From the NCBI GenBank assembly GCA_964362665.1, contig CAYIFB010000004.1:13349-77348 (forward strand): a stretch of DNA of 64,000 bases, written 5' to 3'. This document shows, piece after piece, positions 13,168 to 43,119 of this stretch (position 1 is its first letter; each line of letters starts with the position of its first letter). This DNA comes from an uncultured Gammaproteobacteria bacterium (lineage in GTDB: Bacteria > Patescibacteriota > Microgenomatia > 2-02-FULL-39-11). The notes under the pieces are model-generated. The model saw nothing but the letters and a program-made list of their open reading frames with translations, was not told the DNA's origin and made no database searches. The position numbers and the translations under genes are program-made.

Positions 13168-13241
13168 ATATGATCCTTCGACATAGCTCTGGATCATAGT
13201 GAGGACTTCGGCTGAGCTCAGTCGAAGCCTCCAATCGAACT

Positions 13242-14639
13242 ATGAATACGAAAAGCGTCAGATTCCGTCTTACGATCTGGTATTCCCTGGCCTTTTTTAT
13301 AGCCAGTATTGTCATTTTTGCCAGTTTCTATTTTATCACTAAACAAGCTCTGTACTCACAAACAGACGCCACGCTTGATTCCCACGGACGTAAAATTGTA
13401 GAAGTAGTAACTCGTGAAGAAAGCAAATCCTGCCAGTCATGTCAGATGATGGCACGAGACGCTTTTCTTCGTGAATTCAGTGATATACCAGGAATGGTAG
13501 TAATTTTAATGGATAACACAGGAAATATTGTAGGCAGTTCTGTCACGGTCGACAGATCTGACAAAAAACTCTCCCAGCTTTTTGAACAGGTTTCAAAAAC
13601 CAATTCTCCCCATATTACTGATCATTTTATTTCTGACCTCAAAATGCGTTTTTGGATTGATCCAATTTATAAAAATGACCAACTGCTGGGAGTGGTTTTT
13701 GTGGGACATCCGATAGATGTAATTGAGAAATCTCTTAACGATTTGATTCTTATGCTGATAGCCGTATTTATAGTATTTTTAATTCCGACGATTTTTGGCG
13801 GGTATCTTTTAGCTAAAAGTGCGATTCAGCCAATCGCTCTGATATCGGAAAAACTGAAAAAAATCAGCAGTGAAAATCTCGATGAACGTGTCGCAACTCC
13901 AAATACCAATGATGAAATTAAAGAACTAGCCGTAACATTTAATAGCCTGCTTGACCGTTTAAGCCAGGCATTTAAAAGAGAAAGACAATTCATAGGAGAT
14001 GTTGCTCATGAACTCAAAACGCCTCTAGCAACACAGCGCAGTAATATTGAAGTAATTCTGGCAAAAGACAGAAATAAAAATGAATATGTAAGAGCACTAA
14101 ATGAAAATTTAGTAGATAACAATAGAATGTCAGTCACTCTTGATAATATTTTGGACCTGGCCTGGTCGGAAGCGGAAGTAACTACTCACTTTGAGATATT
14201 TAATCTGTCAGAACTAGTTGAAGAGATTCGCGATTTAGCAACTAAAATGGCTACATCAAAAAATATTAAAATTATTGGAGAAACCGCTCCAGATATTAAA
14301 ATACACGGGAAAAGAGATAAATTGTTCCATGCTGTACTAAATATTGTGGATAATGCAGTCAAATATACAAATGATCAAGGAACAGTAACTATTTCACTTC
14401 ATAAAACTTCAAACAAGATTAATTTACAGATAAAAGATGACGGAATCGGAATTGCAAAAAAAAATCTTCCGCATATTTTTGAAAGGTTTTATAGGGGTAC
14501 TAATAATGATAAGATTTCGGGTTCCGGGCTTGGACTGGCAATTGCGCATGCGATTATTTCCTCCCATCACGGAAACATAGATATTAAAAGTTCAATTGGA
14601 CAAGGTACAATTGTTTCTATCACATTTCTCTGTTCTTAA
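13242..14639 (+). CDS. Sensor histidine kinase (CusS/CopS-like), two TM + HAMP + HisKA + HATPase
   Basis: H-box GDVAHELKTPLA, N-box VDNAVKYT, G-boxes DDGIGI and GSGLGLAIA. Confidence 0.85.
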   Translation: MNTKSVRFRLTIWYSLAFFIASIVIFASFYFITKQALYSQTDATLDSHGRKIVEVVTREESKSCQSCQMMARDAFLREFSDIPGMVVILMDNTGNIVGSSVTVDRSDKKLSQLFEQVSKTNSPHITDHFISDLKMRFWIDPIYKNDQLLGVVFVGHPIDVIEKSLNDLILMLIAVFIVFLIPTIFGGYLLAKSAIQPIALISEKLKKISSENLDERVATPNTNDEIKELAVTFNSLLDRLSQAFKRERQFIGDVAHELKTPLATQRSNIEVILAKDRNKNEYVRALNENLVDNNRMSVTLDNILDLAWSEAEVTTHFEIFNLSELVEEIRDLATKMATSKNIKIIGETAPDIKIHGKRDKLFHAVLNIVDNAVKYTNDQGTVTISLHKTSNKINLQIKDDGIGIAKKNLPHIFERFYRGTNNDKISGSGLGLAIAHAIISSHHGNIDIKSSIGQGTIVSITFLCS

Positions 14640-32108: not shown

Positions 32109-33521
32109 CTAAAGGATTTTTAACCGCCTTATTACTTCATCTTTACCCAATACTTCCATTGAATCATTAAGGGGAGGTGAAATTTTTTTACCGGTAATAG
32201 CGACTCTTAAAATCATAAAAAATTCGCTGTTTTTTATCTTTAATTCCTCCGCCAGATTTTGCATTGATTCTCCTATTTTTACCGCCTGCCAACTTTTTAA
32301 TTCCTGAAGTATTTCGGAAATTTTACTCATCAAGACACGTTTATCATCTAAATCAATTTCGTATATATCCGGAGGATGGAAAAAAAATTCGCAGAGAGGT
32401 AAATAATCAGAAAACTTCTTTATTCTTTCACGAATTAGCGGGATCGTTTTTTCAATTATATCTATCGGATATTTTTTATCGTAAAATTCCCAGATTTGAG
32501 ATTTAAGATTTGAGTTTTGACTTTTGCGAATATATTCTCCGTTCATCCAATCCAGTTTTTTAAGATCAAAACTAGGACCAACAGTTTTTACATCCTTTAA
32601 TTCAAAATATTGAATCATCTCATCTAATGTAAACACTTCTACATCATCAGTTTTACCCTGTCTCTTATCCGGGATTGACCAACCCATTAAAGCAAGATAG
32701 TTCAGGATAGCTTCGGGTAAATATCCCTGACTTTTATACCAGGAAGCCCAAACTGGGTTTTTTCTTTTAGATAATTTGCTGCGGTCAGGATTTCTCAAGA
32801 TTGGGGTGTGAGCAAAGACAGGCAATTCAAAACCTAAATATTTATATATCAGAATATGTTTGGGAGTGGAAGATAACCATTCTTCAGCTCTAATGACGTG
32901 TGATATTTTCATGATAAAATCATCCACCACTACAGCCAGATGATAGGTGGGAAAGCCGTCAGATTTCAAAAGTATTTGATCATCAATCAAACTATTTTGA
33001 AAACTTACCTTTCCCCGAATGAGATCATTAAACTCTGTCGTTCCTGTATCCGGAACGTTTAATCTGATCACATATTTTTGATCTTTTACCTTTGAGCTTT
33101 GATTTTTGTTATATTTGCATCTACCGTCGTAAAGAGTAGGTTTTTTTGCCGCGATTTGTTCATGCCGCATCTTTTCCAAATCGCTTGGCGTACAGTAACA
33201 ATAATAGGCATAGCCTTTCTTCACTAATTCTTCTGCGTATTGCTTGTATAGGTCAAGGCGTTCTGACTGGATATAAGGTCCGTAGGGACCACCGATATCG
33301 GGCCCTTCATCGTAATTTAAGCCAAACCAATTGAGAGTCTTTAATATCCTCTCCTGAGATCCTGGAATCAATCTCGTCTTATCTGTATCCTCAATTCTGA
33401 CAATGAATTTTCCCTTGTTTTTGCGTGCAAATACGAAATTAAGCAGAGCTGTATATACGTTTCCAATGTGTAAATCTTCCCCTGTAGGAGAAGGAGCAAT
33501 TCGTACTCTGACATTATTCAC
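32109..33521 (-). CDS. gltX: Glutamate--tRNA ligase
   Basis: RVRIAPSPTGEDLHIGN HIGH-type motif, KLSKRK KMSKS-type motif, and an anticodon-binding C-terminus. Confidence 0.9.
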   Translation of the reverse strand: MNNVRVRIAPSPTGEDLHIGNVYTALLNFVFARKNKGKFIVRIEDTDKTRLIPGSQERILKTLNWFGLNYDEGPDIGGPYGPYIQSERLDLYKQYAEELVKKGYAYYCYCTPSDLEKMRHEQIAAKKPTLYDGRCKYNKNQSSKVKDQKYVIRLNVPDTGTTEFNDLIRGKVSFQNSLIDDQILLKSDGFPTYHLAVVVDDFIMKISHVIRAEEWLSSTPKHILIYKYLGFELPVFAHTPILRNPDRSKLSKRKNPVWASWYKSQGYLPEAILNYLALMGWSIPDKRQGKTDDVEVFTLDEMIQYFELKDVKTVGPSFDLKKLDWMNGEYIRKSQNSNLKSQIWEFYDKKYPIDIIEKTIPLIRERIKKFSDYLPLCEFFFHPPDIYEIDLDDKRVLMSKISEILQELKSWQAVKIGESMQNLAEELKIKNSEFFMILRVAITGKKISPPLNDSMEVLGKDEVIRRLKIL

Positions 33522-33600: not shown

Positions 33601-34686
33601 TTGACCATTCTTATAACGATTATGTCCAGCCTGACCGAAATTTCTATCTATTCCAAAAAAATATTTGCTTTTATAATCGGATTTTTACTTTTTATAATCT
33701 TGCTTCGGGGAATTACTTCAATATTAATTAAAAATTGGAAAGCATCTCATCCGACACCAATTCCGGGACCCGATGTCAAATTTGATAAACTTCCCTCTCC
33801 CCAATTCCCTTTTAAACTTTCAACGTCCGGAATGCATTTTACCTTAGAAAATATTGAAGGAAAACCGCCGGAAACAACCTCTGCTGCAAAAGTTTACTCA
33901 ATACCTAAAACCGTTCCAAGCTTTCTGTCGGATGAGAAAGCCCAGAAATTTGCGATGAAACTAGGATTCACCCTTAGCCCTGATGATATAAGTTCAACTT
34001 ATTATCATTATACTGATCCGATAGACAGTAATCGGACGCTTATTTTTGATATAGCTAATATGAATTTCAAGTTGAAATACGATTATTCAAAAAATCAGTC
34101 AAAGGTTTTTGATCAGGGATCTATTTTAAGTAAAGAAAGAACGATTTCCGAGGTTAAAAACTTCATCAGATACAATAATCTATTTGATGATGCAATCCTA
34201 AATGGAATTATCACCACAAATTTCTATAAATTAGATCCTATTCAAAATAAACTTGTTTCATCTACCAGTTTGTCAACTACACAAGCAGTACGGGTAAATT
34301 TTAACAGAAACGACTTAGATAAAATGCAGATTGTCTCTCCGATTTTTGGTGAAAGTTATAATTATGCTCTTTACACCTTTTCCTCACAAATAAAACCTCC
34401 AATAATTGAATTATCTTATGCGTTTTGGCCTATTGACTATAATAAATATGCAACCTATCCGCTGCGCTCAGGTCAACAAGCCTGGAAAGACTTAATCGAC
34501 GGTTACGCTCTGGTTTCTAAAATGGGAAATAATAAAAAGGAAGATAATATCATCATTCGTAAAATTTATCTAGCCTACTATGATAGTGAAGAGCCACAAG
34601 CCTTTCTCCAACCGATATTCATTTTTGAAGGGGATAATGATTTTGCGGCATACCTTCCCGCTATTTCGCCTCAATGGTTGGAATAA
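33601..34686 (+). CDS. Hypothetical membrane-anchored protein
   Basis: ORF with N-terminal TM segment; no recognised motifs. Confidence 0.4.
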   Translation: MTILITIMSSLTEISIYSKKIFAFIIGFLLFIILLRGITSILIKNWKASHPTPIPGPDVKFDKLPSPQFPFKLSTSGMHFTLENIEGKPPETTSAAKVYSIPKTVPSFLSDEKAQKFAMKLGFTLSPDDISSTYYHYTDPIDSNRTLIFDIANMNFKLKYDYSKNQSKVFDQGSILSKERTISEVKNFIRYNNLFDDAILNGIITTNFYKLDPIQNKLVSSTSLSTTQAVRVNFNRNDLDKMQIVSPIFGESYNYALYTFSSQIKPPIIELSYAFWPIDYNKYATYPLRSGQQAWKDLIDGYALVSKMGNNKKEDNIIIRKIYLAYYDSEEPQAFLQPIFIFEGDNDFAAYLPAISPQWLE

Positions 34687-35632
34687 GTTTATCTAAAGGA
34701 ACCCAATTATAATTAGTATAGATATAGTTAATCAATTTTTCAGTATCACCGAATCTATCTTTGCTTTTGAGTACGGCAAAAATTACTAAAGAATCATTCT
34801 TCTTCACCTCAGAAATTAGAATTTCGCCGGCATTTTCAGTCTGTCCTGTTTTTACCCCGGCCACTCCTGCAATTTTACCAAGCAATTCATTCACATTAAT
34901 CAGATCATGAAAATATGTATATGTCACATCAGACACTACAATTCTTTTGGTGCTGACGATTTTAGAAAATAGTTTATTGTTTAATGCATATAACGAGACC
35001 TTTACCAAGTCCTGTGCGGTGGAAAAGTGATTCTTATCATCAAAACCAGCCGGATTAGTAAAATGAGTATTGGTAAGGCCTAAATCCAATATCTTATTGT
35101 TCATTTTTTCGACAAACTTTGCTACTCCTCCCGGATAGTTCTCTGCTAAGGCGAGCGCAGCATCATTTGCAGAATGAATCAGCAACCCTTCAAGAAGTGC
35201 TTCAAAAGTAATTTTTTCTTTTTTGACCAGACCCATAATTCTTCCTTGAATATTATCTGACTGCACGATCAGAACATCATCAAGATTGTAATAATCCAGA
35301 GCAACAAGGGCTGTAACAATTTTGGTAGTTGATGCAGGTGAATATATCTCCCTTTCATTTTTAGAATATAAAGTAATTCCTGATGGAATATCTTTAATCA
35401 GTACAGCCTCTGCACTTATTAGTGGCAACTCGTTACTGGTAATTTTTACTGGAATTGGTGGCGGTTGCGGTAAACGATCATCTACGGGTAATGTTATTCC
35501 TTGAGCGAGATCTATGGGATGGGAATAGATATTTGATGAGGGGCTTAACAGCAAAAAAATTATTATCAATATAAACCATATAATTTTCCATTGATACTTA
35601 AAAATAGTGGGAATAAATTTATTTTTTGGCAT
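34661..35632 (-). CDS. D-alanyl-D-alanine carboxypeptidase (peptidase S11, PBP5/6-like)
   Basis: SxxK (SPASTTK), SxN (SAND) and KTG (KTGQT) motifs; signal peptide. Confidence 0.75.
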   Translation of the reverse strand: MPKNKFIPTIFKYQWKIIWFILIIIFLLLSPSSNIYSHPIDLAQGITLPVDDRLPQPPPIPVKITSNELPLISAEAVLIKDIPSGITLYSKNEREIYSPASTTKIVTALVALDYYNLDDVLIVQSDNIQGRIMGLVKKEKITFEALLEGLLIHSANDAALALAENYPGGVAKFVEKMNNKILDLGLTNTHFTNPAGFDDKNHFSTAQDLVKVSLYALNNKLFSKIVSTKRIVVSDVTYTYFHDLINVNELLGKIAGVAGVKTGQTENAGEILISEVKKNDSLVIFAVLKSKDRFGDTEKLINYIYTNYNWVPLDKLIPTIEAK

Positions 35633-37019
35633 TTATGACTCTTATTCCTAATTCATCAAGCTGTTGAGAACCGGCCATGCTCGGAGCCTCCATCACAGAG
35701 GTGGCGCCTGATGCTGATGTTGGAAAGGCCATAACTTCCCGGACGCTCGGTTCACCAAGAACTGCCATCAAAAATCTGTCAATCCCCGGAGCAATACCTC
35801 CGTGTGGCGGAACTCCATAGGTAAATGCTGTTAGCATATGAGAAAATTGTTTTTTTTGCTCAGTTGTAAACCCAATTAGATCAAAGACTTTCTCCTGAAT
35901 ATCGCTTTGGTGAATCCTGATACTGCCACCTCCCACTTCATAACCATTCAAGACTAAATCATGCTGTAAACCTCTTACCTTTAAAGGATCGCTGTCTAAA
36001 TATTTAATATCATCGGGGTGAGGCGCGGTAAACATATGATGGGACGGTGCAAACTTTGCATTGCCTGAACCGTGAAAAAAATCTTCTTTTGACTGTTTGG
36101 CAAATAACGGAAAATCCAATGTCCAGGCAAACGCCAGTTCATCAGGATCTTTTTTATCACTTCGAAGATCCGGCTTGTCTGAACCATATTTTTGTATGGC
36201 ATCTTTATGAGCCAGTCTGGGCCAAGGCAACTTTGTAAAATGTTTATTGGGAAAAACTTCAGCTATAAGAGTGGTGAATAATTCTTCAATTAGGATCAAA
36301 ATATCTTCCTGTGATACAAATGACATTTCCATATCAAGCTGCGTGAACTCTCCATATGCTCTATCAGCTCTGGGATCCTCATCACGAAAACATCTGACAA
36401 TTTGAAAATATCTTTCTACTCCCGCTACCATTAATAGTTGTTTATACTGTTGGGGAGACTGAGGTAAGGCATAAAATTTTCCTTTTTGTAGTCGTGATGG
36501 AACAATAAAGTCTCGTGCACCTTCGGGAGTAGTTTTGGTAAGCATGGGAGTTTCAATCTCTAAAAAATCTTTCTTCGTGAGAAAGTTCCGCATGAAAGTA
36601 GTTGTCTGTGAACGGAGTTGAAGATTTTTAAACATTCTACTGCGTCTGATATCTAAATAGCGGTATTTCATACGAACTTCTTCTTCAATATCATAACCGT
36701 CATTATCAATGGGAAAAGGCAATTCTTTGGATTTAGAAATTATTGTAAGTTTTAAAGTTTCTATTTCTACATTTCCGGTGGCTATTTTGGGGTTAACCAG
36801 TTTAGGAGGTCTCTCCTTAACTAATCCTTCAACTTCGATCACATCCTCTACACTTAATTGCGGAATTTCTCCGGTTATTACCAGCTGGATAGTGCCACTT
36901 CGATCTCTCAAATCAATAAAAGCAATTTTTCCGTGATCTCGTCTTTTATTAATCCAACCAAGAAGTAGTACTTTTTCTCCGATTTTTTTGATAGTTTCGA
37001 TGATAAGTGTTCTTTTCAT
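35619..37019 (-). CDS. aspS: Aspartate--tRNA ligase, short archaeal/eukaryal-type (no GAD insertion)
   Basis: N-terminal OB fold; class II motif 2 FRDED...RADR; GGGSIRIH; GIDRFLM. Confidence 0.8.
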   Translation of the reverse strand: MKRTLIIETIKKIGEKVLLLGWINKRRDHGKIAFIDLRDRSGTIQLVITGEIPQLSVEDVIEVEGLVKERPPKLVNPKIATGNVEIETLKLTIISKSKELPFPIDNDGYDIEEEVRMKYRYLDIRRSRMFKNLQLRSQTTTFMRNFLTKKDFLEIETPMLTKTTPEGARDFIVPSRLQKGKFYALPQSPQQYKQLLMVAGVERYFQIVRCFRDEDPRADRAYGEFTQLDMEMSFVSQEDILILIEELFTTLIAEVFPNKHFTKLPWPRLAHKDAIQKYGSDKPDLRSDKKDPDELAFAWTLDFPLFAKQSKEDFFHGSGNAKFAPSHHMFTAPHPDDIKYLDSDPLKVRGLQHDLVLNGYEVGGGSIRIHQSDIQEKVFDLIGFTTEQKKQFSHMLTAFTYGVPPHGGIAPGIDRFLMAVLGEPSVREVMAFPTSASGATSVMEAPSMAGSQQLDELGIRVINAKK

Positions 37020-37026
37020 ATCCGTT

Positions 37027-38220
37027 CTAATGATTATATTTTTCTAATGCCATACCTAACAGTCTTATAGCTCTTTGCAGCTTGTCTTCGCTCAAAACAT
37101 AAGCAATGCGGATTTTATCTTTACCTTTTTGCGGATCTTTATAAAAACCGGTTGCCGGCGCGATCATCACAGTTTCACCGTGATCGGAAAAATCACTAAG
37201 TAAAAATTCAGCAAATTTATCGCTATCCTTAACTGGGATTCGTGGCATAATATAAAAAGCCCCTTCGGGAATGACGAAAGAAACTCCCTTAATCTTACGA
37301 AGCTCCCCGACTACCATATCTCTCCTTTTTTTATAATTTTTTTTGACTTGTTCCGTATACTTACGGGAGTTAGATAATACCGGAATAAGAGCTAACTGGT
37401 CAACTGTCGCTACTGACAGCCTGGCTTGAGCAAAACGCATGATAGCACTCATCACCTCTTTATTCTTACTGGCTACACAGCCAATTCTGGCTCCGCAGGA
37501 ATTAAATCTTTTGGAAACGCTGTCGGTAATAATCAGTTGATTATGAAGTTTAGGTATAGACATAAAAGGAAGAACTTTCTTATCGTCAAAAACGATTTCC
37601 TGATAGGTTTCATCAGAGATAATGAAAAGATTGTGTTTCAGTGCAATATCAGCAATCATTTTTACCTCGTCAGGTGTATACATGGTGCCGGTTGGATTAT
37701 TAGGGTTGCAAAGTACTATCCCGCGGGTTTTTTTGCTTATTGCTTTTTCAATTACTGTTTTTGACGGAAGATGATAACCGTTTTCAACTTCCGTAGGCAG
37801 TGCTTTCAGAATAACATTGCCCATAGCAGCCATAATGGCATAACTGGTATAAAAAGGTTCAAAAACTAATAATTCTTCTCCCGGATCAGCTACCGTCAAG
37901 AATGCCATTATAAGTCCTTCTGATCCACCACTCGTTACAATAATTTCATTGTCATCAAATTTTACTGATTTATCGTGGTAAAATTTTTGCCAGGCGGCTA
38001 TTGTCTCATGCATTCCTTCAGATGGAGCATATTCCAGAGTATCGAGTGCAAATTTTCTTATCGCGTTAATGATCGGTTTGGGGGTTTCCAAATCCGGCTG
38101 TCCTATATTTAAATGGTAGACTTTTATACCTTTTTTCTTTGCTTTATCTGCCAGTGGAACCAGTTTCCTAATAGCTGAAGCTGGGCTGTTTAAGGCTCTA
38201 ACTGAAATATCAATTTTCAT
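37027..38220 (-). CDS. Class I pyridoxal-phosphate aminotransferase (aspartate aminotransferase-like)
   Basis: SKRFNSCGARIG PLP-lysine block; NPNNPTG. Confidence 0.75.
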   Translation of the reverse strand: MKIDISVRALNSPASAIRKLVPLADKAKKKGIKVYHLNIGQPDLETPKPIINAIRKFALDTLEYAPSEGMHETIAAWQKFYHDKSVKFDDNEIIVTSGGSEGLIMAFLTVADPGEELLVFEPFYTSYAIMAAMGNVILKALPTEVENGYHLPSKTVIEKAISKKTRGIVLCNPNNPTGTMYTPDEVKMIADIALKHNLFIISDETYQEIVFDDKKVLPFMSIPKLHNQLIITDSVSKRFNSCGARIGCVASKNKEVMSAIMRFAQARLSVATVDQLALIPVLSNSRKYTEQVKKNYKKRRDMVVGELRKIKGVSFVIPEGAFYIMPRIPVKDSDKFAEFLLSDFSDHGETVMIAPATGFYKDPQKGKDKIRIAYVLSEDKLQRAIRLLGMALEKYNH

Positions 38221-38249: not shown

Positions 38250-39752
38250 TTAACCTAAACTCTTTCTTAGACTTCCTGCTAAAGAAATAAGATTAGTAGG
38301 ATTAGCTCTACTTTTTAATCTATTATAAATAGTCTCAGATAATTTGCAATGTTCTTTTTGAATATCGTCTTGAGGGCCAAGTGTAATCCCTAATATCTTT
38401 TCTATCTCCATCACATCCTCAAAAATATGCTTAAAGGCAGGTATATCAGAAGCAAGTCGCGCCAGATTATTTTTATTTAAAAAATTACCTGCTTTAATGA
38501 TGTCTTTTTTTAGGTTAACATAATATCGGAATATTTCTTCTGTCAGTCCGATTTCTTTTGCTTTTTTTAAACCTCTGCCTGTGGCAATAATTTCCGGAGG
38601 AATTCCTAAAGAATAAAGAGAGGCTGTGAAGGTAATCGCCCGGGGTAAATGTACTTTTCCCACTCCTCGGGAGTAACCAAAAAGACCGATATGTTGGACT
38701 CTTTCCCTTCTTTTTGCGACAAATAAACTCATTGAATTAATAAGAGGAGCTAATTTCTCAACTGTTTCTCTATATGGAATCTCAAAAAATGGAATTATTT
38801 CGAGAAGTTTCTTTTTAGTTCGTGTATCAATTTGATCTGCAACTCCTTTTGGTAATTTTTGTTTCAATACTTTTATAGCTGCCTGTACCTTCTTTTTGGG
38901 AAAATCATATCTGAATGCACTTTGTATAATCATTGTCTTAATTCCCCGATATTCATTCAGTACGTCTGGAATGTTAAGCGGAGACACCGATCCTCTGAAA
39001 GGAAGTGTCCCTGTACCAACCATAGGAAAAAGTCTAACACCTGTTTCGTTCTCTAAATCCCTGAATTGCGACAACGCTATTTTTAAAGCTAACATAGTGG
39101 GTACAAGTGACGAATTAAGCGCCGGATCGCTTCGGGCGCAATAAGGTCGCAGATAGTCCGGAAATTTTCCGAATTTGGCTTTATGAAGTTTAAAATACTC
39201 CCTTAAAATCTTTGAAGATCTGGTAATCACGTCCACCTGCTCGAAAAGGGGAATAATTTCGATGGATTTAATGGAATCATTCATCTTCAATAACCTATGT
39301 TCTATGCCGACAATTTCCCGGAAAGCTTCCTGAATATCAATGATTTCTTCAGCAGTTTCGGTCAAGGGAAGAATTGTTTCAAAAATTGGAGGATGTGTGA
39401 AACCCAAACTTTGTGCCAATTGACTACTGGTAATCATGACCATAAACGCTCTAGCCAATCTGAATTGTTTTTCCACGCGGGGATTAGGTATGCGAAAAGT
39501 CAGAAATTTTTCTATTCCCAAAGGATTTTTTTTGAAATAGTTGTAATATTTGCTGAGAAGTCTGTCAACCACTGCTTCATCAACAAATTTTCCCTCCCAA
39601 TCCCAGTTATATTCATCCATCTCAAGATCTGAAAAACAGAGATAACACTCTTTCAATTCCGCAAGTGTTGATATGAAGGCACTGCCCTGCCAAAAGGGTT
39701 TTCCCGCATTATCTGGATGCTGAGTTGCCATGGTTGTAGGAATTTTTCTCAT
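38250..39752 (-). CDS. ppcA: Archaeal-type phosphoenolpyruvate carboxylase (PpcA family)
   Basis: N-terminus MRKIPTTMATQHPDN. ARSDPAL, GTGTLPFRG, QSAFRYD and LPRAITFTASLYSLGIPPE match the blocks of the Clostridium/archaeal PEPC family. About 500 aa. Confidence 0.8.
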   Translation of the reverse strand: MRKIPTTMATQHPDNAGKPFWQGSAFISTLAELKECYLCFSDLEMDEYNWDWEGKFVDEAVVDRLLSKYYNYFKKNPLGIEKFLTFRIPNPRVEKQFRLARAFMVMITSSQLAQSLGFTHPPIFETILPLTETAEEIIDIQEAFREIVGIEHRLLKMNDSIKSIEIIPLFEQVDVITRSSKILREYFKLHKAKFGKFPDYLRPYCARSDPALNSSLVPTMLALKIALSQFRDLENETGVRLFPMVGTGTLPFRGSVSPLNIPDVLNEYRGIKTMIIQSAFRYDFPKKKVQAAIKVLKQKLPKGVADQIDTRTKKKLLEIIPFFEIPYRETVEKLAPLINSMSLFVAKRRERVQHIGLFGYSRGVGKVHLPRAITFTASLYSLGIPPEIIATGRGLKKAKEIGLTEEIFRYYVNLKKDIIKAGNFLNKNNLARLASDIPAFKHIFEDVMEIEKILGITLGPQDDIQKEHCKLSETIYNRLKSRANPTNLISLAGSLRKSLG

Positions 39753-39910
39753 AAAAAAATCTCACTCCTTTAAAAAGGGTGAGATTATTATAATTTCTCA
39801 CGGTACCACCTTAAACTTTCTTTTTACTGCTGTCTCGGGCTTACCCGTCGGATTCTACTATTTTCTTTCCGATGCTCCGGTGTGTCGTCACCATCATTGC
39901 AATCTACTTA
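39753..39910 (-). promoter_or_regulatory. Putative compact T-box riboswitch leader for the ppcA-aminotransferase-aspS operon
   Basis: Minus-strand GGUGGUACCGUG (39799-39810) matches the T-box core GGUGGNACCGCG. The antiterminator helix GUGAGA/UCUCAC (39796-39801 with 39779-39784) would leave a UGGUACC bulge. A mutually exclusive terminator UCUCACCC/GGAGUGAGA plus U7 (39753-39784) also sequesters the AGGAG ribosome-binding site. A candidate stem I hairpin at 39871-39895 has GACGACA in its loop. Confidence 0.5.
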
Positions 39911-41629
39911 TTAAGTAGAAATCCTAACATCTTTAAGACGCAATTGCAAGCGTGTTTTAGAATTCCATGTGTTCTCATCCAAACTGTATAATATGTCAAT
40001 CTTTCTATCAGGGTTAAACTGACTTGAAATTTCTCCCATTTTAAATCCGATGGCTTCGATAAAATCATGTTCTAAATCATGAGAGAAATTATTATTTGCC
40101 GTAATATTTTCGCTTATTTTCAATTTCATTTTCAAATGGTTTCTTTCACGACCCACCAATGAAAAACCTGCGATCATGATATTTTTACTTAAAAAAACAG
40201 GCTCAGTATTTCCTACTCCAAATGGCTCTAAAAGTAATAATTTCGCATATAAATCCCCAGTTATCTCAGTCAGGTTTAAAACCATATCTATATAGATATT
40301 TTTATCCTGTTTCTTTTTTAAATTATTTTTTTGAAAAAAATCGGTAAGTCTTGATTCAAGTAGCCCAATTTTAGATGTTTCAACAGTAAAACCTGCCGCC
40401 TGAGGATGACCGCCAACATCAATTAAGATATCTTCAAACTTTCTGATAATCGCGACGATATCGATGCCTTTAATAGATCGGGCTGAAGCTTTGGAAATTT
40501 TTTCGCCTTTAGCAATCACAATCGATGGAAGATTGGCATCTTGGGTCAGTCTTCCGGCAATAAGACCGATTATCCCTGTTTGAAAACTTTCGTGACTGAT
40601 AAAGATTAAACCAGTTTTATTAATAACCATACCCTTCGCCAATATTACCGCCTCCTCTGTCATGATCTGTCTTTTTTTATTCAAATCATAAAGTTTTTCT
40701 GATAACGACATCGCCCTAATCTTGTCATTAGTGCAAAGAAGGCGAAGCGCATCAATGGCGTGAGTCAGGCGTCCGATGGCATTAATTCTTGGTCCGATGA
40801 TATGACCCAAATCATAGACGTCAATATCTTCTTTAATGATTCCGGCATGTTTTATTAGTGTATTTAAACCAACTCTTTTGGTCTTTCTAAGTTGCTCCAG
40901 TCCTGCTTTCACAAAAATTCGATTCACTCCGGTAAGCGGGATTAAATCACAAACTGTGGCCAATGCCACTAAATCCAGATTTTCTTTTTGGGAGAATTTA
41001 CCATGTTGCAAATCTTCGGATTTTTTCAGATAACTTGTCAACTCCTCGCAAAAATACCAAACTAAAGCAGTTGCACAAATCATGGTTGTATGTACAAGAA
41101 TATTAATTTGGGGAGATTTATCCGGTTTTACGTGGTGATCGATTACAATAATATCGATTCCCCTGCTTTTGGCAAAAGCAATTTTGCTGCCGGCTGAAAT
41201 ACCATGATCAACCGTAATGATCAGAGAAGCGTTATATTTTTTCTTGACCTCTAAAATACCTTTTTCCGATAGTCCGTAACCCTCATCAATCCTGTTTGGT
41301 ACATAGGGCATCACCTTAGCACCTAATCCATAAAGACATTCCCAAAGCAGAGCACCGCTGCTTAACCCATCCACATCATAATCGGTATAGACTACTATTG
41401 ATTCAGAATTTTTTAACGCCGAATCGATTCGTTTCAGAGCTTTTAATAAACCGGTGGTTTTTATTCCTAATATTTTACGGTTTATTTGGGATAAATCAGG
41501 ATGGAGAAATTCTTTTATTTGTTTTTTGGTTTTTATACCGCGGTTTTTAAGTATTATTGATATTATTTCATCCTCTTTGGATATATTCGATTTACCCCGG
41601 CTCTCATCTAAAATTTTCCACTTATTCAT
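39911..41629 (-). CDS. recJ: Single-stranded-DNA-specific exonuclease RecJ
   Basis: DHH motifs (YTDYDVDG, DHGISAG, IVIDHH), DHHA1 domain, and a C-terminal OB-like region. Confidence 0.85.
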   Translation of the reverse strand: MNKWKILDESRGKSNISKEDEIISIILKNRGIKTKKQIKEFLHPDLSQINRKILGIKTTGLLKALKRIDSALKNSESIVVYTDYDVDGLSSGALLWECLYGLGAKVMPYVPNRIDEGYGLSEKGILEVKKKYNASLIITVDHGISAGSKIAFAKSRGIDIIVIDHHVKPDKSPQINILVHTTMICATALVWYFCEELTSYLKKSEDLQHGKFSQKENLDLVALATVCDLIPLTGVNRIFVKAGLEQLRKTKRVGLNTLIKHAGIIKEDIDVYDLGHIIGPRINAIGRLTHAIDALRLLCTNDKIRAMSLSEKLYDLNKKRQIMTEEAVILAKGMVINKTGLIFISHESFQTGIIGLIAGRLTQDANLPSIVIAKGEKISKASARSIKGIDIVAIIRKFEDILIDVGGHPQAAGFTVETSKIGLLESRLTDFFQKNNLKKKQDKNIYIDMVLNLTEITGDLYAKLLLLEPFGVGNTEPVFLSKNIMIAGFSLVGRERNHLKMKLKISENITANNNFSHDLEHDFIEAIGFKMGEISSQFNPDRKIDILYSLDENTWNSKTRLQLRLKDVRIST

Positions 41630-41760: not shown

Positions 41761-43119
41761 ATGAAATATCAAATTCCCAAAGAAGTTTTGATTGTCTTTA
41801 ATAAATTCCATAAAAAAGGATATGAGATCTTTGCTGTAGGAGGCGCTGTCAGAAATCTAATTCTTAACAGAATGACTAAGGATTGGGATTTCACCACAAA
41901 TGCCCAACCTGAAGAGATTGTCAAACTTTTTAAAGACAGTTTTTATGATAATAAATTCGGTACTGTCGGAATTCCGGTAAAAAGTCTGTCATCAGTTTTT
42001 GAAATTACTACCTATCGCAGTGAGTTGGGCTTCACCAATCATCGGCATCCCGACAAAATAATTTGGGGCAAAACCCTCGAAGAAGATTTAAAAAGACGGG
42101 ATTTTACCATTAATACTCTGGTTTTTGACGGAGATAATGTCAAGGATTTACTCGGAGGAATAGCTGATTTAGATAATCATTTGATTAAAGCAGTTGGAGA
42201 CGCTTCGGAAAGATTTCAGGAGGATGCCTTAAGGATGCTCAGGGCTGTCCGCATTGCCACACAGCTGAAGTTTATGATCGAATCCCATACTTTTGCGGCC
42301 ATCCAAAAAAACATCAAACTTTTAAATAAAATTTCCCAGGAAAGGATAAGAGATGAGTTGATAAAAATTCTATCGTCAGAATATCCTGCAGACGGTATTT
42401 TACTTCTAAGAAATTGCGGAATCCTTACCGTAATCCTGCCGGAATTGGAGGCATGTTTTGGGGTTGAACAAAAAAGTCCGAAACGTCATCATAAATATGA
42501 TGTCGGGACACATCTTGTAGAATCACTTCGTCATTGTCCATCTCTGAATCCTTATGTTCGATTAGCAACGCTTCTTCATGATATTGGAAAGCCTCGTGTA
42601 TTTAATAAGACTGACGAGGGTGTTATCACTTTTTATAATCATGAAATTATCGGTAACTCGATGGTGAAAAAAATTGTAAACCGGCTCCATCTTTCTAAAA
42701 AAGAAAGTGAAAAAATATGTCGTCTCGTCAAGTATCATCAATTTACCGTTGATGAAAGACAAACAGACAAAGCGGTAAGGCGTTTCATCAAAAATGTAGG
42801 TCTGGAAAACCTGAAAGATATTTTGGACCTTCGTATCGGTGACCGTCTGGGGGGAGGCGCCACCGAAACATCTTGGCGGCTGGATCTATTTAAAAAAAGA
42901 TTGATTGAGGTACAAAAACAGCCATTTACCATCTCAGATTTAAAAATTGACGGGTTTGACGTGATGAAAATACTTAATCTCTCCCCGGGACCAAGAGTTG
43001 GAGAAATTCTCGCTTTACTCTTCGCAAAAGTTATTGACGGAAAAATAAAAAATGATAGGGAATCTCTTCTTACCGAAATTAAAGCTTTTTTTTCTTCAAT
43101 GACCAATCTTCCCAAATAA
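41761..43119 (+). CDS. cca: CCA-adding tRNA nucleotidyltransferase with HD domain
   Basis: GGAVRN...DWDF nucleotidyltransferase head; HD motif HHKYDVGTH...LLHDIGKP. Confidence 0.8.
   Translation: MKYQIPKEVLIVFNKFHKKGYEIFAVGGAVRNLILNRMTKDWDFTTNAQPEEIVKLFKDSFYDNKFGTVGIPVKSLSSVFEITTYRSELGFTNHRHPDKIIWGKTLEEDLKRRDFTINTLVFDGDNVKDLLGGIADLDNHLIKAVGDASERFQEDALRMLRAVRIATQLKFMIESHTFAAIQKNIKLLNKISQERIRDELIKILSSEYPADGILLLRNCGILTVILPELEACFGVEQKSPKRHHKYDVGTHLVESLRHCPSLNPYVRLATLLHDIGKPRVFNKTDEGVITFYNHEIIGNSMVKKIVNRLHLSKKESEKICRLVKYHQFTVDERQTDKAVRRFIKNVGLENLKDILDLRIGDRLGGGATETSWRLDLFKKRLIEVQKQPFTISDLKIDGFDVMKILNLSPGPRVGEILALLFAKVIDGKIKNDRESLLTEIKAFFSSMTNLPK

What the first reader, a model, noticed from the sequence alone, without database searches (positions are those of the whole stretch)
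39753..39910. Compact T-box riboswitch in front of an archaeal-type PEPC / aspartate aminotransferase / aspS operon
The minus-strand leader between recJ and ppcA contains GGUGGUACCGUG (39799-39810). This is an 11 of 12 match to the T-box core GGUGGNACCGCG. The geometry also fits. A 6-bp helix GUGAGA/UCUCAC (39796-39801 with 39779-39784) closes an 11-nt loop and leaves UGGUACC as the 7-nt bulge that normally pairs with the tRNA NCCA end. UCUCACCC can pair instead with GGAGUGAGA (39760-39768), followed by U7. That forms a terminator which also buries the AGGAG ribosome-binding site 12 nt before the ppcA ATG. The leader is only about 158 nt. That resembles the reduced T-boxes described in Actinobacteria, which have a short stem I with the specifier in the terminal loop. 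A hairpin at 39871-39895 (GAUGGUG-acgaca-CACC...CAUC) shows GAC-GAC-A in its loop, that is, an Asp codon followed by the usual purine. The downstream operon makes oxaloacetate (PEPC), converts it to Asp (class I aminotransferase) and charges tRNA-Asp (AspRS). A tRNA-Asp-sensing T-box controlling both Asp supply and aspS would be a coherent, and as far as I know undescribed, regulatory unit. One caveat: the bulge N is U, which predicts an A73 discriminator, whereas bacterial tRNA-Asp usually has G73. A G-U pair or a different specifier is possible.
Basis: partly seen in the sequence, partly recalled or inferred. Interest (0 to 1): 0.75.

Follow-up and report, generated by a model that had tools for sequence, protein, structure and literature searches.

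The report
Minimal aspartate T-box riboswitch in CPR bacterium
A very small tRNA-sensing RNA switch (a T-box) sits in front of the genes that make aspartate and load it onto its tRNA in an uncultivated groundwater bacterium; the switch lacks two parts thought to be essential, and the group it belongs to (the candidate phyla radiation) was not known to have T-boxes.

Summary
The minus-strand leader 39753-39910 is a real T-box riboswitch. RF00230 gives a full-length match of 44.4 bits. This is the only Rfam hit in the 64 kb (E 1.5e-6). It is below the gathering score of 93 but equals the score of ultrashort ileS-linked leaders from high-GC (actinobacterial-type) contigs (44.0). The leader has a K-turn, a 5-bp stem I whose 6-nt loop shows GAC followed by A, a stem II S-turn, a IIA hairpin, a UGGUACC bulge, and mutually exclusive antiterminator (-5.9) and terminator (-13.2 kcal/mol, U7, SD buried) folds. 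It has no stem I platform and no stem III. It has G-C where most T-boxes have the G.U sensor pair.

The organism is a Candidatus Gottesmanbacteria (CPR). Four related genomes keep the leader: 91 of 92 helix and motif positions are invariant, against 47.5% of third codon positions. One nested relative deleted it, and more distant relatives never had it. Similar compact leaders occur in other CPR lineages (Taylorbacteria-like aspS; Microgenomates-like ileS), and there the loop codon matches the downstream synthetase. The operon is archaeal-type PEPC, an aminotransferase and the cell's short AspRS. I rate it a new variant of a known kind. Function itself is inferred, not shown.

The parts
39753..39910 (-). 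Whole leader between the recJ stop (39913-39911) and the ppcA ATG (39752)
   Evidence: Sequence read. The RF00230 match covers 39906-39772. Model R1 matches 39903-39775 at 160 bits.
39874..39900 (-). Stem I. C-stem GC (39900-99) pairs with GC (39875-74). K-turn bulge AAU (39898-96). Tandem G.A pairs: GA (39895-94) with GA (39877-76). Stem U-GGUG (39893-89) pairs with CACC-G (39882-78). Terminal loop ACGACA (39888-83).
   Evidence: Aligned to the RF00230 stem I base with 72 model positions deleted. The helix is recovered by RNAalifold. In relatives only the K-turn bulge (AAU, GUU, AUU) and loop position 1 (A or C) vary. Across CPR and actinobacterial-type leaders, 4 of 5 stem pairs show changes on both sides.
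39883..39886 (-). Specifier GAC (39886-84, Asp) and the conserved 3' purine A (39883)
   Evidence: CGACA is invariant in four lineages. At the same loop position, AUC followed by A lies upstream of ileS in L084, L154, L056 and L082, and GAC followed by G lies upstream of aspS in L068 and L158.
39849..39871 (-). Stem II. CGGA (39871-68) pairs with UCCG (39852-49). The S-turn signature is GAA (39865-63) and AGUA (39859-56), capped by a 3-nt loop.
   Evidence: Aligned to RF00230 stem II, GAA...AGUA. Only the 3-nt cap varies in relatives: AAU, AUU, AAA. The same AAGAAA...(A/U)AG(U)AGAA occurs in L068, L084, L154 and L158.
39836..39847 (-). Stem IIA hairpin CGGG-UAAG-CCCG
   Evidence: Aligned to the RF00230 IIA hairpin. 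It is invariant in the clade and recovered by RNAalifold. IIB (pseudoknot) pairing is not established.
39812..39835 (-). Linker that takes the place of stem III. It has an invariant purine-rich part, AGACAGCAGUAAAAAG, then a variable 6-7 nt.
   Evidence: RF00230 stem III is deleted in the alignment, 19 positions to 1. No helix is predicted. The distal 6-7 nt differ in every lineage: AAAGUUU, UUGAUU, CGAUUAA.
39776..39811 (-). Antiterminator. A1 is AGG (39811-09) with CCU (39778-76). The T-box bulge is UGGUACC (39808-02). A2 is GUGAGA (39801-796) with UCUCAC (39784-79). The loop is 39795-85.
   Evidence: -5.9 kcal/mol. The helices are invariant while the loop varies between 11 and 19-20 nt. In L149 the A-U pair of A1 becomes G.U. 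The pair at the base of A2 is G-C.
39753..39786 (-). Terminator and sequestrator hairpin (39786-39758) with the U7 tract (39759-39753). The Shine-Dalgarno AGGAG (39769-65) lies in its 3' arm.
   Evidence: -13.2 kcal/mol, z = -4.6. It shares UCUCACCCU with the antiterminator, so the two folds exclude each other. GGAGUGAGA followed by U7 is invariant in the clade, and the hairpin loop varies.
38250..39752 (-). ppcA, archaeal-type phosphoenolpyruvate carboxylase (500 aa), first regulated gene
   Evidence: TIGR02751, 462.7 bits, above the cut-off of 146.
37027..38220 (-). Class I PLP aminotransferase (397 aa), presumed aspartate aminotransferase
   Evidence: NF005744, 538 bits, above the cut-off of 389. 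Aspartate aminotransferase models score below their cut-offs.
35619..37019 (-). aspS, bacterial-type AspRS of 466 aa without the insertion domain
   Evidence: NF001750, 602.9 bits, in two stretches. This short form is the usual one in Gottesmanbacteria and Patescibacteria.
34661..35632 (-). D-Ala-D-Ala carboxypeptidase-like gene. It overlaps the aspS 3' end by 14 nt and is probably the last gene of the operon.
   Evidence: The same order is found in L001, L147, L149 and L150.
39921..39949 (-). Candidate promoter TTGCAA-N17-TAGGAT inside the recJ 3' end (tentative)
   Evidence: It lies within a ~60-nt stretch that is nearly invariant at the nucleotide level in five genomes. It matches only 8 of 12 consensus positions and was not reported by the promoter scan.

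Best explanation
The leader is a tRNA-Asp-responsive T-box riboswitch of a reduced architecture. It governs the operon ppcA (PEP to oxaloacetate), aminotransferase (oxaloacetate to Asp) and aspS (Asp to Asp-tRNA), probably with dac as well, in a Candidatus Gottesmanbacteria clade.

Proposed mechanism. Only the sequence anatomy and its conservation are shown here; every functional step below is inferred by homology to characterised T-boxes.
1. The nascent RNA folds a K-turn-based stem I. Its 6-nt terminal loop presents GAC followed by A to the GUC anticodon of tRNA-Asp. The stem II S-turn docks beside this duplex, as it does in actinobacterial ileS T-boxes that also lack the stem I elbow-binding platform.
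2. If the bound tRNA is uncharged, its 3' GCCA pairs with UGGU of the 7-nt bulge (with a U.G wobble at position 73). This stabilises the weak antiterminator (-5.9 kcal/mol).
3. If the tRNA is charged or absent, UCUCACCCU pairs instead with AGG-A-GUGAGA (-13.2 kcal/mol). The hairpin followed by U7 terminates transcription just before the ATG. In any transcript that reads through, the same hairpin hides the Shine-Dalgarno sequence.

The net effect is that low charging of tRNA-Asp raises both aspartate synthesis and AspRS.
For: Homology. RF00230 matches over its full length at 44.4 bits. This is the only Rfam hit with E <= 0.1 in 64 kb (E 1.5e-6). An ileS-linked ultrashort leader from a high-GC contig scores the same, 44.0.

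Anatomy. The K-turn, the specifier followed by a purine, the S-turn, the IIA hairpin, the UGGNACC bulge and the competing helices are all present. RNAalifold recovers stems I, II, IIA and A2 without being given a structure.

Selection. The leader is present in four related genomes whose third codon positions are only 47.5% invariant. Of 92 helix and motif positions, 91 are invariant (P about 2e-28). About 27 of 38 loop and linker positions vary.

Structure across the wider group. In 12 ultrashort-stem-I leaders, 96.6% of cells pair, against 42-51% when partners are slid. Fifteen of 24 pairs change on both sides, and 0 of 500 shuffles reach these values.

Specifier rule. The codon just 5' of a purine and the 3' stem strand matches the downstream synthetase in every ultrashort-stem-I leader examined. 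AUC precedes ileS in L056, L082, L084 and L154. GAC precedes aspS in L068 and L158. GAC precedes the operon that holds aspS in the window.

Discriminator. L068 has UGGU and its close relative L158 has UGGC, with the same Asp loop. This fits a tRNA with G73.

Operon. PEPC, aminotransferase and AspRS are assigned by curated models. The short AspRS is the standard enzyme of this lineage.
Against: There is no experimental evidence of any kind and no transcript data. The score is below Rfam's gathering threshold. Stem III, which the review PMC7583486 calls indispensable for binding the tRNA 3' end, is absent. The G.U pair described there as the primary aminoacyl sensor is G-C here. The same review says transcriptional T-boxes generally need a long stem I. 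Within the clade the helices never vary, so there is no compensatory change at that level. The wider alignment was fitted to the model. The tRNA-Asp gene of this organism was not retrieved, so the anticodon and N73 are assumed. One nested relative (L001) deleted the leader and kept the operon, so the control is dispensable. The leader starts 10 nt after the recJ stop, and its promoter is uncertain. The partition into 'constrained' and 'loop' positions was finalised after I had seen the alignment.
Confidence: 0.85

Rival explanations
1. It is a T-box that acts only on translation. The hairpin merely sequesters the Shine-Dalgarno sequence, as in actinobacterial ileS T-boxes, and the U7 run is just the A/U-rich spacer before the ATG rather than a terminator tail.
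For: The CPR relatives L084 and L154 use the same CCCUU...AAGG-A-GCGAU hairpin with no U tract, and the AUG follows directly. In the leaderless L001 the spacer before the ATG is also U6. The review says ultrashort stem I goes with translational control. The hairpin is modest at -13.2 kcal/mol.
Against: A hairpin directly followed by seven U is the canonical form of an intrinsic terminator. U7 is invariant in four lineages. The compact CPR Asp leader L068 has an unmistakable terminator (-31.2 kcal/mol, followed by U5), so ultrashort stem I and termination do coexist in this group. The two modes do not exclude each other.
Confidence: 0.3
2. It is a decaying or non-functional T-box remnant. It is recognisable by homology but no longer switches, because stem III and the G.U sensor pair are gone.
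For: Stem III and the G.U pair are absent. L001 lost the whole element without losing the operon.
Against: A remnant would drift. Instead 91 of 92 helix and motif positions are invariant where synonymous sites are 47.5% invariant, and changes are confined to loops. The same reduced architecture recurs in distant CPR lineages, with compensatory helix changes and codon-to-gene agreement.
Confidence: 0.05
3. It is a T-box that reads a different tRNA. The loop ACGACA also contains ACG and ACA (Thr) and CGA (Arg). UGGU would suit the A73 of tRNA-Thr, and Thr derives from Asp.
For: The loop contains overlapping triplets. U in the bulge is the standard partner of A73.
Against: ACG is not conserved: the loop is CCGACA in L147 and L150. 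In every homologous ultrashort stem I, the codon that matches the downstream synthetase occupies the three positions before the last loop purine. Here that is GAC, not CGA or ACA. The operon contains aspS, not thrS or argS. L158 has UGGC with the same Asp loop.
Confidence: 0.04
4. It is a chance resemblance. The hairpin followed by U7 is simply the recJ terminator, and the GGUGGUACCG match is fortuitous.
For: The element lies directly after the recJ stop codon. The score is below Rfam's gathering threshold.
Against: The core motif has 0 expected occurrences in the window. The full-length RF00230 match has E 1.5e-6. Five separate T-box modules occur in the right order. The conservation pattern follows the T-box model. 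All 43 chance matches to a loose pattern in viral contigs lacked an antiterminator, whereas the window passed the same screen.
Confidence: 0.01

Closest known systems
Actinobacterial translational ileS T-boxes with ultrashort stem I (Sherwood, Grundy and Henkin 2015; Mycobacterium ileS structures), as summarised in PMC7583486 and PMC11297988
   Same: The K-turn base is followed by a 4-5-bp stem. A 6-nt terminal loop carries NN-codon-A. There is no elbow-binding distal platform. A stem II S-turn (AAGAA...UAGA) is present. The Shine-Dalgarno sequence is paired by the 3' strands of A1 and A2 in the OFF state. The RF00230 score is the same (44.0 against 44.4 bits). These comparisons were made directly with ileS-linked leaders from high-GC contigs, L056, L062, L082, L085 and L101.
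   Different: The specifier is Asp, not Ile. The host is CPR, not Actinobacteria. Stem III is absent here but present in the actinobacterial-type leaders. The base pair of A2 is G-C here and G.U there. Here the OFF hairpin is followed by U7, so transcription termination is likely. The regulon is a three-step Asp supply and charging operon rather than one synthetase gene.
Canonical transcriptional T-box leaders of Firmicutes (Rfam RF00230; for example B. subtilis tyrS and glyQS)
   Same: The T-box sequence and 7-nt bulge are present. The antiterminator competes with an intrinsic terminator that has a U tract. There is a specifier followed by a purine, a K-turn, a stem II S-turn and a IIA hairpin. 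The logic is that uncharged tRNA turns on genes for the cognate amino acid.
   Different: About 72 model positions of stem I (specifier internal loop, AG bulge, distal loop) and the 19-position stem III are missing. The leader from K-turn to A1 is 129 nt, against about 220. It has G-C instead of G.U at the base of A2, which 84% of ordinary T-boxes sampled here have as G.U. It scores far below the family's gathering threshold.
Compact T-box leaders found here in other CPR bacteria: L068 and L158 (Taylorbacteria-like, Asp, aspS) and L084 and L154 (Microgenomates-like or Patescibacteria, Ile, ileS)
   Same: They share the ultrashort stem I with a terminal-loop specifier, the AAGAAA...AGUAGAA stem II, the absence of stem III, G-C at the base of A2, AGG-UGGNACC-G, and an OFF hairpin CCCUU...AAGG-A-G... 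with a bulged A in the SD.
   Different: Those four have an 18-nt linker with no IIA hairpin and a longer distal stem II. L084 and L154 have no U tract and so look purely translational. They regulate a synthetase, with or without a small ORF, and not biosynthetic genes. I found no publication on them, so this is a comparison with sequences and not with a described family.

Membership tests
T-box leader (Rfam RF00230) | Covariance-model score at or above the curated gathering score (93 bits) | tested here: not met
   The score is 44.4 bits over the full model (1-219), with E 1.5e-6 in the window. The shortfall comes from deletion of the stem I distal part and of stem III. An ileS-linked ultrashort leader from a high-GC contig scores 44.0.
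T-box leader (Rfam RF00230) | T-box sequence with a 7-nt bulge, 5'-UGGN-3' followed by ACC, between helices A1 and A2 | tested here: met
   AGG-UGGUACC-GUGAGA...UCUCAC-CCU at 39811-39776. It is invariant in four lineages. The motif is unique in the window, with 0 expected.
T-box leader (Rfam RF00230) | A terminator or sequestrator helix that excludes the antiterminator and is more stable than it | tested here: met
   The two folds share UCUCACCCU. The energies are -13.2 and -5.9 kcal/mol. U7 follows the hairpin and the SD lies inside it. This is a computed fold only.
T-box leader (Rfam RF00230) | K-turn (GA motif) at the base of stem I | tested here: met
   GC / AAU / GA ... GA / GC. Only the 3-nt bulge varies in relatives (AAU, GUU, AUU). 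The C-stem is invariant in 12 leaders. The K-turn fold itself was not probed.
T-box leader (Rfam RF00230) | A specifier codon followed by a purine that matches the amino acid of the regulated genes | tested here: met
   GAC followed by A (39886-83) lies upstream of aspS and the Asp-synthesis genes. The position rule was checked on ileS and aspS leaders.
T-box leader (Rfam RF00230) | Stem I distal platform (AG bulge and distal loop) that stacks on the tRNA elbow | tested here: not met
   72 model positions are replaced by 2 nt, and stem I ends in a 6-nt loop. The recognised actinobacterial subclass also lacks this feature.
T-box leader (Rfam RF00230) | Stem II with an S-turn (GAA / AGUA) | tested here: met
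   CGGA-AA-GAA-AAU-AGUA-GAA-UCCG. It aligns to the model's stem II. Only the 3-nt cap varies.
T-box leader (Rfam RF00230) | Stem IIA/B pseudoknot | tested here: inconclusive
   The IIA hairpin CGGG-UAAG-CCCG is present and invariant. A 3-bp pairing of loop UAA with the UUA just 5' of A1 is possible in all four lineages but is unsupported by covariation.
T-box leader (Rfam RF00230) | Stem III with flanking purines (5'-RRRxG-stem III-AA-3') as part of the discriminator domain | tested here: not met
   No helix is present. The model's stem III is deleted. The corresponding 6-7 nt are the most variable part of the leader. A purine-rich run, GUAAAAAG, and AA before A1 remain.
T-box leader (Rfam RF00230) | G.U wobble pair at the base of helix A2 (the steric sensor of the aminoacyl group) | tested here: not met
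   It is G39801-C39779. All 8 CPR leaders have G-C and the 4 actinobacterial-type leaders have G.U. Of 56 ordinary antiterminators, 47 have G.U.
T-box leader (Rfam RF00230) | Bulge position 4 pairs with the discriminator base (N73) of the cognate tRNA | tested here: inconclusive
   No tRNA-Asp gene was recovered. Indirect evidence: the Asp leaders L068 (UGGU) and L158 (UGGC) differ by U or C, and both pair with G. That bacterial tRNA-Asp has G73 comes from general knowledge.
T-box leader (Rfam RF00230) | Binds uncharged cognate tRNA and switches gene expression accordingly | not testable with these tools
   This needs binding, in vitro transcription or translation, or reporter assays.
Actinobacterial translational ileS T-box (ultrashort stem I class) | Ultrashort stem I with the specifier in the terminal loop | tested here: met
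   The layout is the same as in L056 and L082: AAUGA-U-GGGG-CCAUCA-CCCC-G-GAGC.
Actinobacterial translational ileS T-box (ultrashort stem I class) | Ile specifier upstream of ileS, in Actinobacteria | tested here: not met
   The specifier is Asp, the target is the ppcA-aminotransferase-aspS operon, and the host is Candidatus Gottesmanbacteria.
Actinobacterial translational ileS T-box (ultrashort stem I class) | SD sequestration without an intrinsic terminator, with stem III retained | tested here: not met
   The SD is sequestered, but the hairpin is followed by U7, and stem III is absent.

The most novel reading that the evidence does not exclude
CPR (Patescibacteria) bacteria carry a previously unrecognised class of minimal T-box riboswitches, about 110-130 nt long. 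They work without the stem I tRNA-elbow platform, without stem III and without the G.U aminoacyl-sensor pair. They come in both terminator and SD-sequestering versions. In one Gottesmanbacteria clade, one of them has been recruited to couple anaplerotic CO2 fixation (PEPC), transamination and AspRS to the charging of tRNA-Asp. If these RNAs really distinguish charged from uncharged tRNA, they redefine the minimal RNA needed for that task. They also extend the T-box to a major branch of bacteria that standard Rfam annotation misses.
Probability: 0.5. Interest if true: 0.8.

Novelty: new variant of a known kind. Interest (0 to 1): 0.68.

Why it matters
There are three reasons.

1. Structure and mechanism. 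Current models hold that transcriptional T-boxes need the long stem I, that stem III is an integral and indispensable part of the aminoacylation sensor, and that a G.U pair is the steric gate (PMC7583486). This leader and its CPR relatives lack all three, yet they are under strong purifying selection. They offer a natural minimal system for asking what an RNA really needs in order to read tRNA identity and charging.

2. Distribution. In the papers I could search, T-boxes are described as limited to Firmicutes, Actinobacteria, Chloroflexi, Deinococcus-Thermus and some Deltaproteobacteria (PMC3766115). Finding them in at least three CPR lineages bears on whether T-boxes are ancient or horizontally spread. 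It also shows that threshold-based Rfam annotation misses them (31-44 bits against 93).

3. Physiology. CPR bacteria are thought to have little biosynthesis and little known regulation. An operon that makes aspartate from PEP and CO2 and charges it onto tRNA, switched by tRNA-Asp charging, is a concrete and testable regulatory circuit in an uncultivated organism.

Tried and rejected
- A whole-window Rfam search at gathering threshold found nothing. Only the E-value mode showed the T-box.
- The loose pattern AATGA-N-GGAGC-N-GGTGGTACC gave 43 hits in viral contigs. None had an antiterminator, so all were chance matches.
- The single metagenome scan returned mostly ordinary T-boxes in which AATGA...GGAGC falls inside a long stem I. 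Twenty-eight of them were one human-gut family.
- I first read L065 (tyrS) as having a short stem I, but it is a normal 105.5-bit T-box.
- L100, L102, L098, L123 and L090 scored with my model but come from very AT-rich genomes and have other architectures and other targets. I set them aside.
- No tRNA-Asp gene was found. There is none in the window or in any relevant locus, so the discriminator base could not be checked directly.
- I looked for stem III and found none. An AGAC/GUUU pairing in the single-sequence MFE fold is not conserved.
- A IIA-loop pseudoknot remains speculative.
- I first concluded from L001-L004 that the leader was a strain-specific insertion. The tree and four more relatives overturned this: the leader is ancestral to the clade and was deleted in L001.
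- The ileS upstream regions of two other CPR genomes (L152; Amesbacteria L156 and L157) have no T-box core, so the class is not universal in CPR.
- The key papers Sherwood 2015/2018 and Vitreschak 2008 are not in the held library.
Full report
**1. What is in the sequence**

I read the minus strand of 39600-40100. The recJ ORF (41629-39911; TIGR00644) ends with UAA at 39913-39911. The next ORF starts at ATG 39752. Its product begins MRKIPTTMATQHPDNA and is an archaeal-type PEP carboxylase (TIGR02751, 462.7 bits).

- GGUGGUACCGUG lies at 39810-39799. It is the only match to GGTGGNACCGYG in the window, with none expected by chance.
- GUGAGA and UCUCAC close an 11-nt loop. AGG and CCU flank them, so that UGGUACC is a 7-nt bulge.
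- UCUCACCCUU can instead pair with AAGG-A-GUGAGA. U7 follows and then the ATG. The AGGAG Shine-Dalgarno sequence lies inside the 3' arm of this hairpin.

The explicit antiterminator has -5.9 kcal/mol. The terminator hairpin has -13.2 kcal/mol (z = -4.6). The two folds share a strand, so they exclude each other.

**2. Is it a T-box?**

At gathering thresholds Rfam reports nothing in the window. With E-value reporting, RF00230 matches 39906-39772 over the whole model (positions 1-219) at 44.4 bits. The E-value is 8.5e-9 for the leader alone and 1.5e-6 for the whole 64 kb, where it is the only hit of any family with E <= 0.1.

The alignment shows why the score is low. 72 model positions in the distal part of stem I are replaced by 2 nt, and the 19-position stem III by 1 nt. 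Everything else aligns:
- the K-turn base, GC-AAUGA ... GGAGC;
- stem II with its GAA/AGUA S-turn;
- the IIA hairpin;
- the T-box sequence;
- helices A1 and A2.

For calibration, ileS-linked leaders from high-GC contigs that have the ultrashort stem I described for Actinobacteria score the same, 44.0 bits for L082. I assigned these contigs to the actinobacterial type from their 64-68% G+C, their architecture and the IleRS gene downstream. I did not run a taxonomic test on them.

**3. Organism and gene context**

PEPC relatives and identical contigs place the window in a Candidatus Gottesmanbacteria genome (CPR, Microgenomates) from groundwater.

Four genes lie downstream of the leader on the same strand:
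- ppcA;
- a class I PLP aminotransferase (NF005744, 538 bits);
- a bacterial-type AspRS of only 466 aa that matches its model in two stretches and so lacks the insertion domain;
- a D-Ala-D-Ala carboxypeptidase-like gene that overlaps the end of aspS.

The short AspRS is the ordinary enzyme of this lineage, with hundreds of homologues of about 465 aa in Gottesmanbacteria and Patescibacteria. The leader therefore most likely controls the cell's housekeeping AspRS and not a spare copy.

**4. Relatives: a first impression, then a correction**

The four genome loci found with PEPC (L001-L004) have no leader. In L001 (88% PEPC identity) recJ runs into ppcA. L002 and L004 have a stop codon 3-5 nt before the ATG. 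L003 has an unrelated spacer. None has a T-box hit. At that point the leader looked like a strain-specific insertion.

AspRS homologues of 88-90% identity then led to four more loci: L147 (identical in sequence to L148), L149 and L150. In each, recJ and ppcA are separated by 163-164 nt, and the spacer is the same leader.

A neighbour-joining tree of ppcA rooted with L002, together with the concatenated three genes, places the window as the outgroup of ((L001, L149), (L150, (L147, L148))). So the leader was present in the ancestor of this clade. L001 lost it through a deletion of about 148 nt that also removed the recJ stop codon. Gottesmanbacteria at 64-69% PEPC identity never had the leader at this site.

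**5. Selection on the leader**

Across the four lineages that carry the leader, 47.5% of third codon positions in ppcA, the aminotransferase gene and aspS are invariant. Second positions are 93.6% invariant.

In the leader, an element-by-element comparison shows that these parts are all invariant:
- both strands of every predicted helix;
- the K-turn GA/GA pairs;
- loop positions 2-6 (CGACA);
- the S-turn GAA and AGUA;
- the UGGUACC bulge;
- GGAGUGAGA followed by U7.

Substitutions and length changes are confined to these parts:
- the 3-nt K-turn bulge (AAU, GUU, AUU);
- loop position 1 (A or C);
- the 3-nt cap of stem II;
- the 6-7 nt where stem III would be;
- the A2 loop (11 nt against 19-20 nt);
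- the terminator loop;
- the spacer after the recJ stop.

The one change inside a helix turns the A-U pair of A1 into G.U.

In numbers, 91 of 92 helix and motif positions are invariant. The binomial P is about 2e-28 against the third-position rate and 4e-10 against the rate for all coding sites. About 27 of 38 loop and linker positions vary. One caveat applies. I fixed the structural model from the window and the Rfam alignment first, but I drew the final element boundaries with the alignment in view.

RNAalifold on the clade alignment recovers stems I, II, IIA and A2 without any input structure. It does not recover A1, which is expected for a helix that needs tRNA to be stable.

**6. The wider group, and the specifier**

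I used the pattern AATGA-N12-20-GGAGC-N48-78-GGTGGTACCGYG. Most of the 96 hits are ordinary T-boxes, but a few have a true ultrashort stem I:
- Leaders from high-GC contigs upstream of ileS (L056, L062, L082, L085, L101) read AAUGA-U-GGGG-CCAUCA-CCCC-G-GAGC.
- L084 has 34% G+C. Its IleRS best matches Patescibacteria, Microgenomates and Amesbacteria proteins. Its loop is AUAUCA, and it lies upstream of a small membrane ORF and ileS (TIGR00392, 890 bits).
- L068 has 37% G+C. Its DnaK is 92% identical to one from Candidatus Taylorbacteria. Its loop is UAUGACG, and it lies upstream of a small ORF and aspS.

From protein hits I then fetched two more members:
- L154 is from an 810-kb Patescibacteria genome. 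Its loop is UUAUCAA, and the leader lies directly upstream of ileS.
- L158 is from Candidatus Taylorbacteria. Its loop is UAUGACG, and it lies between trpS and aspS.

In every case the three loop nucleotides that precede the last loop purine and the 3' stem strand spell the codon of the downstream synthetase. By the same rule the window reads GAC followed by A. ACG is excluded because the loop is CCGACA in L147 and L150. CGA and ACA do not occupy the codon position.

I built a covariance model from the clade (R1). After the clade itself, its best matches are L068 and L084, followed by the ileS-linked high-GC leaders, with L102 (later set aside) scoring among them. I aligned 12 of these leaders to the model and counted pairs:
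- 96.6% of cells form standard pairs, against 42-51% when the 3' partners are slid by 1-3 columns.
- 15 of 24 pairs have changes on both sides.
- None of 500 shuffles reaches any of the observed measures.

The alignment is fitted to the model, which favours the structure. The margin is nevertheless large.

**7. The discriminator-base caveat**

That tRNA-Asp has G73 is general knowledge, not tested here. I could not recover a tRNA-Asp gene.

There is indirect evidence. L068 and L158 are close relatives, and both carry the same Asp loop upstream of aspS. Their bulges read UGGU and UGGC. U and C are exactly the two bases that pair with G. The metagenome pattern forced U at this position, so L068 says nothing about how common U is. 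L158 was found through a protein and is unbiased.

**8. How this differs from known T-boxes**

Compared with canonical T-boxes, the leader lacks the stem I platform. Compared with both canonical and actinobacterial T-boxes, it lacks stem III.

It also has G-C at the base of helix A2. There 47 of 56 ordinary antiterminators sampled here have G.U, and so do all four ileS-linked high-GC leaders in the 12-leader alignment, while all eight CPR leaders have G-C.

The review PMC7583486 makes three statements that this leader contradicts:
- stem III is indispensable for binding the tRNA 3' end;
- the G.U pair is the primary steric sensor of the aminoacyl group;
- transcriptional T-boxes generally need the long stem I.

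The window clade combines the ultrashort stem I with a hairpin followed by U7. L068 combines it with an unmistakable terminator (-31.2 kcal/mol, followed by U5). L084 and L154 use the same hairpin design (CCCUU...AAGG-A-GCGAU) with no U tract, and the AUG follows directly. They look purely translational.

RF00230 sees these RNAs poorly. The window scores 44.4 bits, L149 34.8, L084 34.5 and L068 31.0. L147, L150, L154 and L158 do not reach E 0.01. Routine annotation would miss them.

**9. Most likely mechanism**

Shown here:
- the anatomy;
- its statistical significance;
- its conservation pattern;
- the agreement between loop codon and downstream gene;
- the competing folds.

Inferred by homology:
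- tRNA-Asp binds through the GAC-GUC duplex, supported by the stem II S-turn.
- The uncharged 3' end pairs with UGGU and stabilises the antiterminator.
- Otherwise the terminator forms, stops RNA polymerase at the U7 tract and also hides the SD.

I rate 'genuine tRNA-Asp-responsive T-box' at about 0.85. I rate 'termination is part of the output' at about 0.6, against about 0.3 for translation only.

The leader begins 10 nt after the recJ stop. The last 60 nt or so of recJ are almost invariant at the nucleotide level in all five genomes, including leaderless L001. This stretch contains TTGCAA-N17-TAGGAT, which ends about 7 nt before the stop. It could be the operon's own promoter, but it matches only 8 of 12 consensus positions and the scan did not report it.

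**10. Comparison with the literature, and novelty**

Within the searchable library, no paper links T-boxes with the candidate phyla radiation or Patescibacteria. T-boxes are described as limited to Firmicutes, Actinobacteria, Chloroflexi, Deinococcus-Thermus and Geobacter (PMC3766115). Asp-specific T-boxes are noted for aspS and an ABC transporter, and there is no mention of PEPC or an aminotransferase (PMC2494555). TBDB searched for its class II (translational) T-boxes only in Actinobacteria (PMC7778990). Several key papers are not held, and I could not consult Rfam's full hit lists or TBDB itself, so prior notice cannot be ruled out.

My classification is that this is a T-box, a known kind, in a new structural variant:
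- ultrashort stem I with no stem III;
- G-C at the sensor position;
- a terminator that also acts as an SD sequestrator.

It occurs in a phylum-level group not known to have T-boxes, and it controls a regulon not described before. It is not categorically new.

Noticed in passing
window 39914-39975 (minus strand, recJ 3' end): About 60 nt of coding sequence are almost invariant at the nucleotide level in five genomes whose synonymous sites otherwise differ by about 37%. This includes L001, which lost the leader. The stretch contains a promoter-like TTGCAA-N17-TAGGAT (39949-39921) and an 8-bp palindrome, GCAATTGC. It may be an internal promoter or operator for the ppcA operon.
   Followed up: partly
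window 35619-37019 (minus strand): The AspRS is bacterial-type but only 466 aa, without the insertion (GAD) domain. This short form is standard across Gottesmanbacteria and Patescibacteria. Some homologues of about 620 aa carry a PF04073 (YbaK/tRNA_edit) domain instead. An editing domain fused into AspRS would be unusual.
   Followed up: no
L001 3990-4044: The closest genome-collection relative deleted the whole leader (about 148 nt) together with the recJ stop codon. RecJ is now extended and overlaps ppcA by 44 nt. GAGA became GAGG, a better SD, 6 nt before the ATG. This is a natural knockout of the riboswitch.
   Followed up: yes
L074 345-460; L098, L113, L124 and L141: tRNA-synthetase leaders from genomes of 28-52% G+C also have a truncated stem I (loop AUUUACG, that is UAC followed by G) and no stem II. 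L074 scores 50.4 bits against RF00230, while the tyrS leader of a close relative (L065) is a full 105.5-bit T-box. Loss of the stem I platform seems to have happened several times outside Actinobacteria.
   Followed up: partly
L084 4847-5323; L068 374-595; L158 about 13130-13290: In the other CPR compact T-boxes, a small ORF of unknown function lies between the leader and the synthetase gene. In L084 it is a membrane protein of about 148 aa. In L068 and L158 it encodes about 55-75 aa.
   Followed up: no
L003 3900-4000: A more distant Gottesmanbacteria has an unrelated spacer of about 110 nt between recJ and ppcA. It contains a long imperfect inverted repeat (GTCATCCTGATCC ... TCAGAATGAC). No Rfam family matches it at E <= 0.1.
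   Followed up: no
window 32109-33521 and 41761-43119: A GluRS gene lies 2 kb downstream of the operon and has no T-box in its short upstream region. A CCA-adding tRNA nucleotidyltransferase gene lies divergently next to recJ. No tRNA gene occurs anywhere in the 64 kb.
   Followed up: partly
L100 4119-4235; L123 1877-1986: Very AT-rich contigs (22-28% G+C) carry reduced T-box-like leaders upstream of pheS-like genes. In L123 the segment between AAUGA and GGAGC is an unpaired 12 nt that contains UUC followed by A. Their architecture differs from the CPR group.
   Followed up: no
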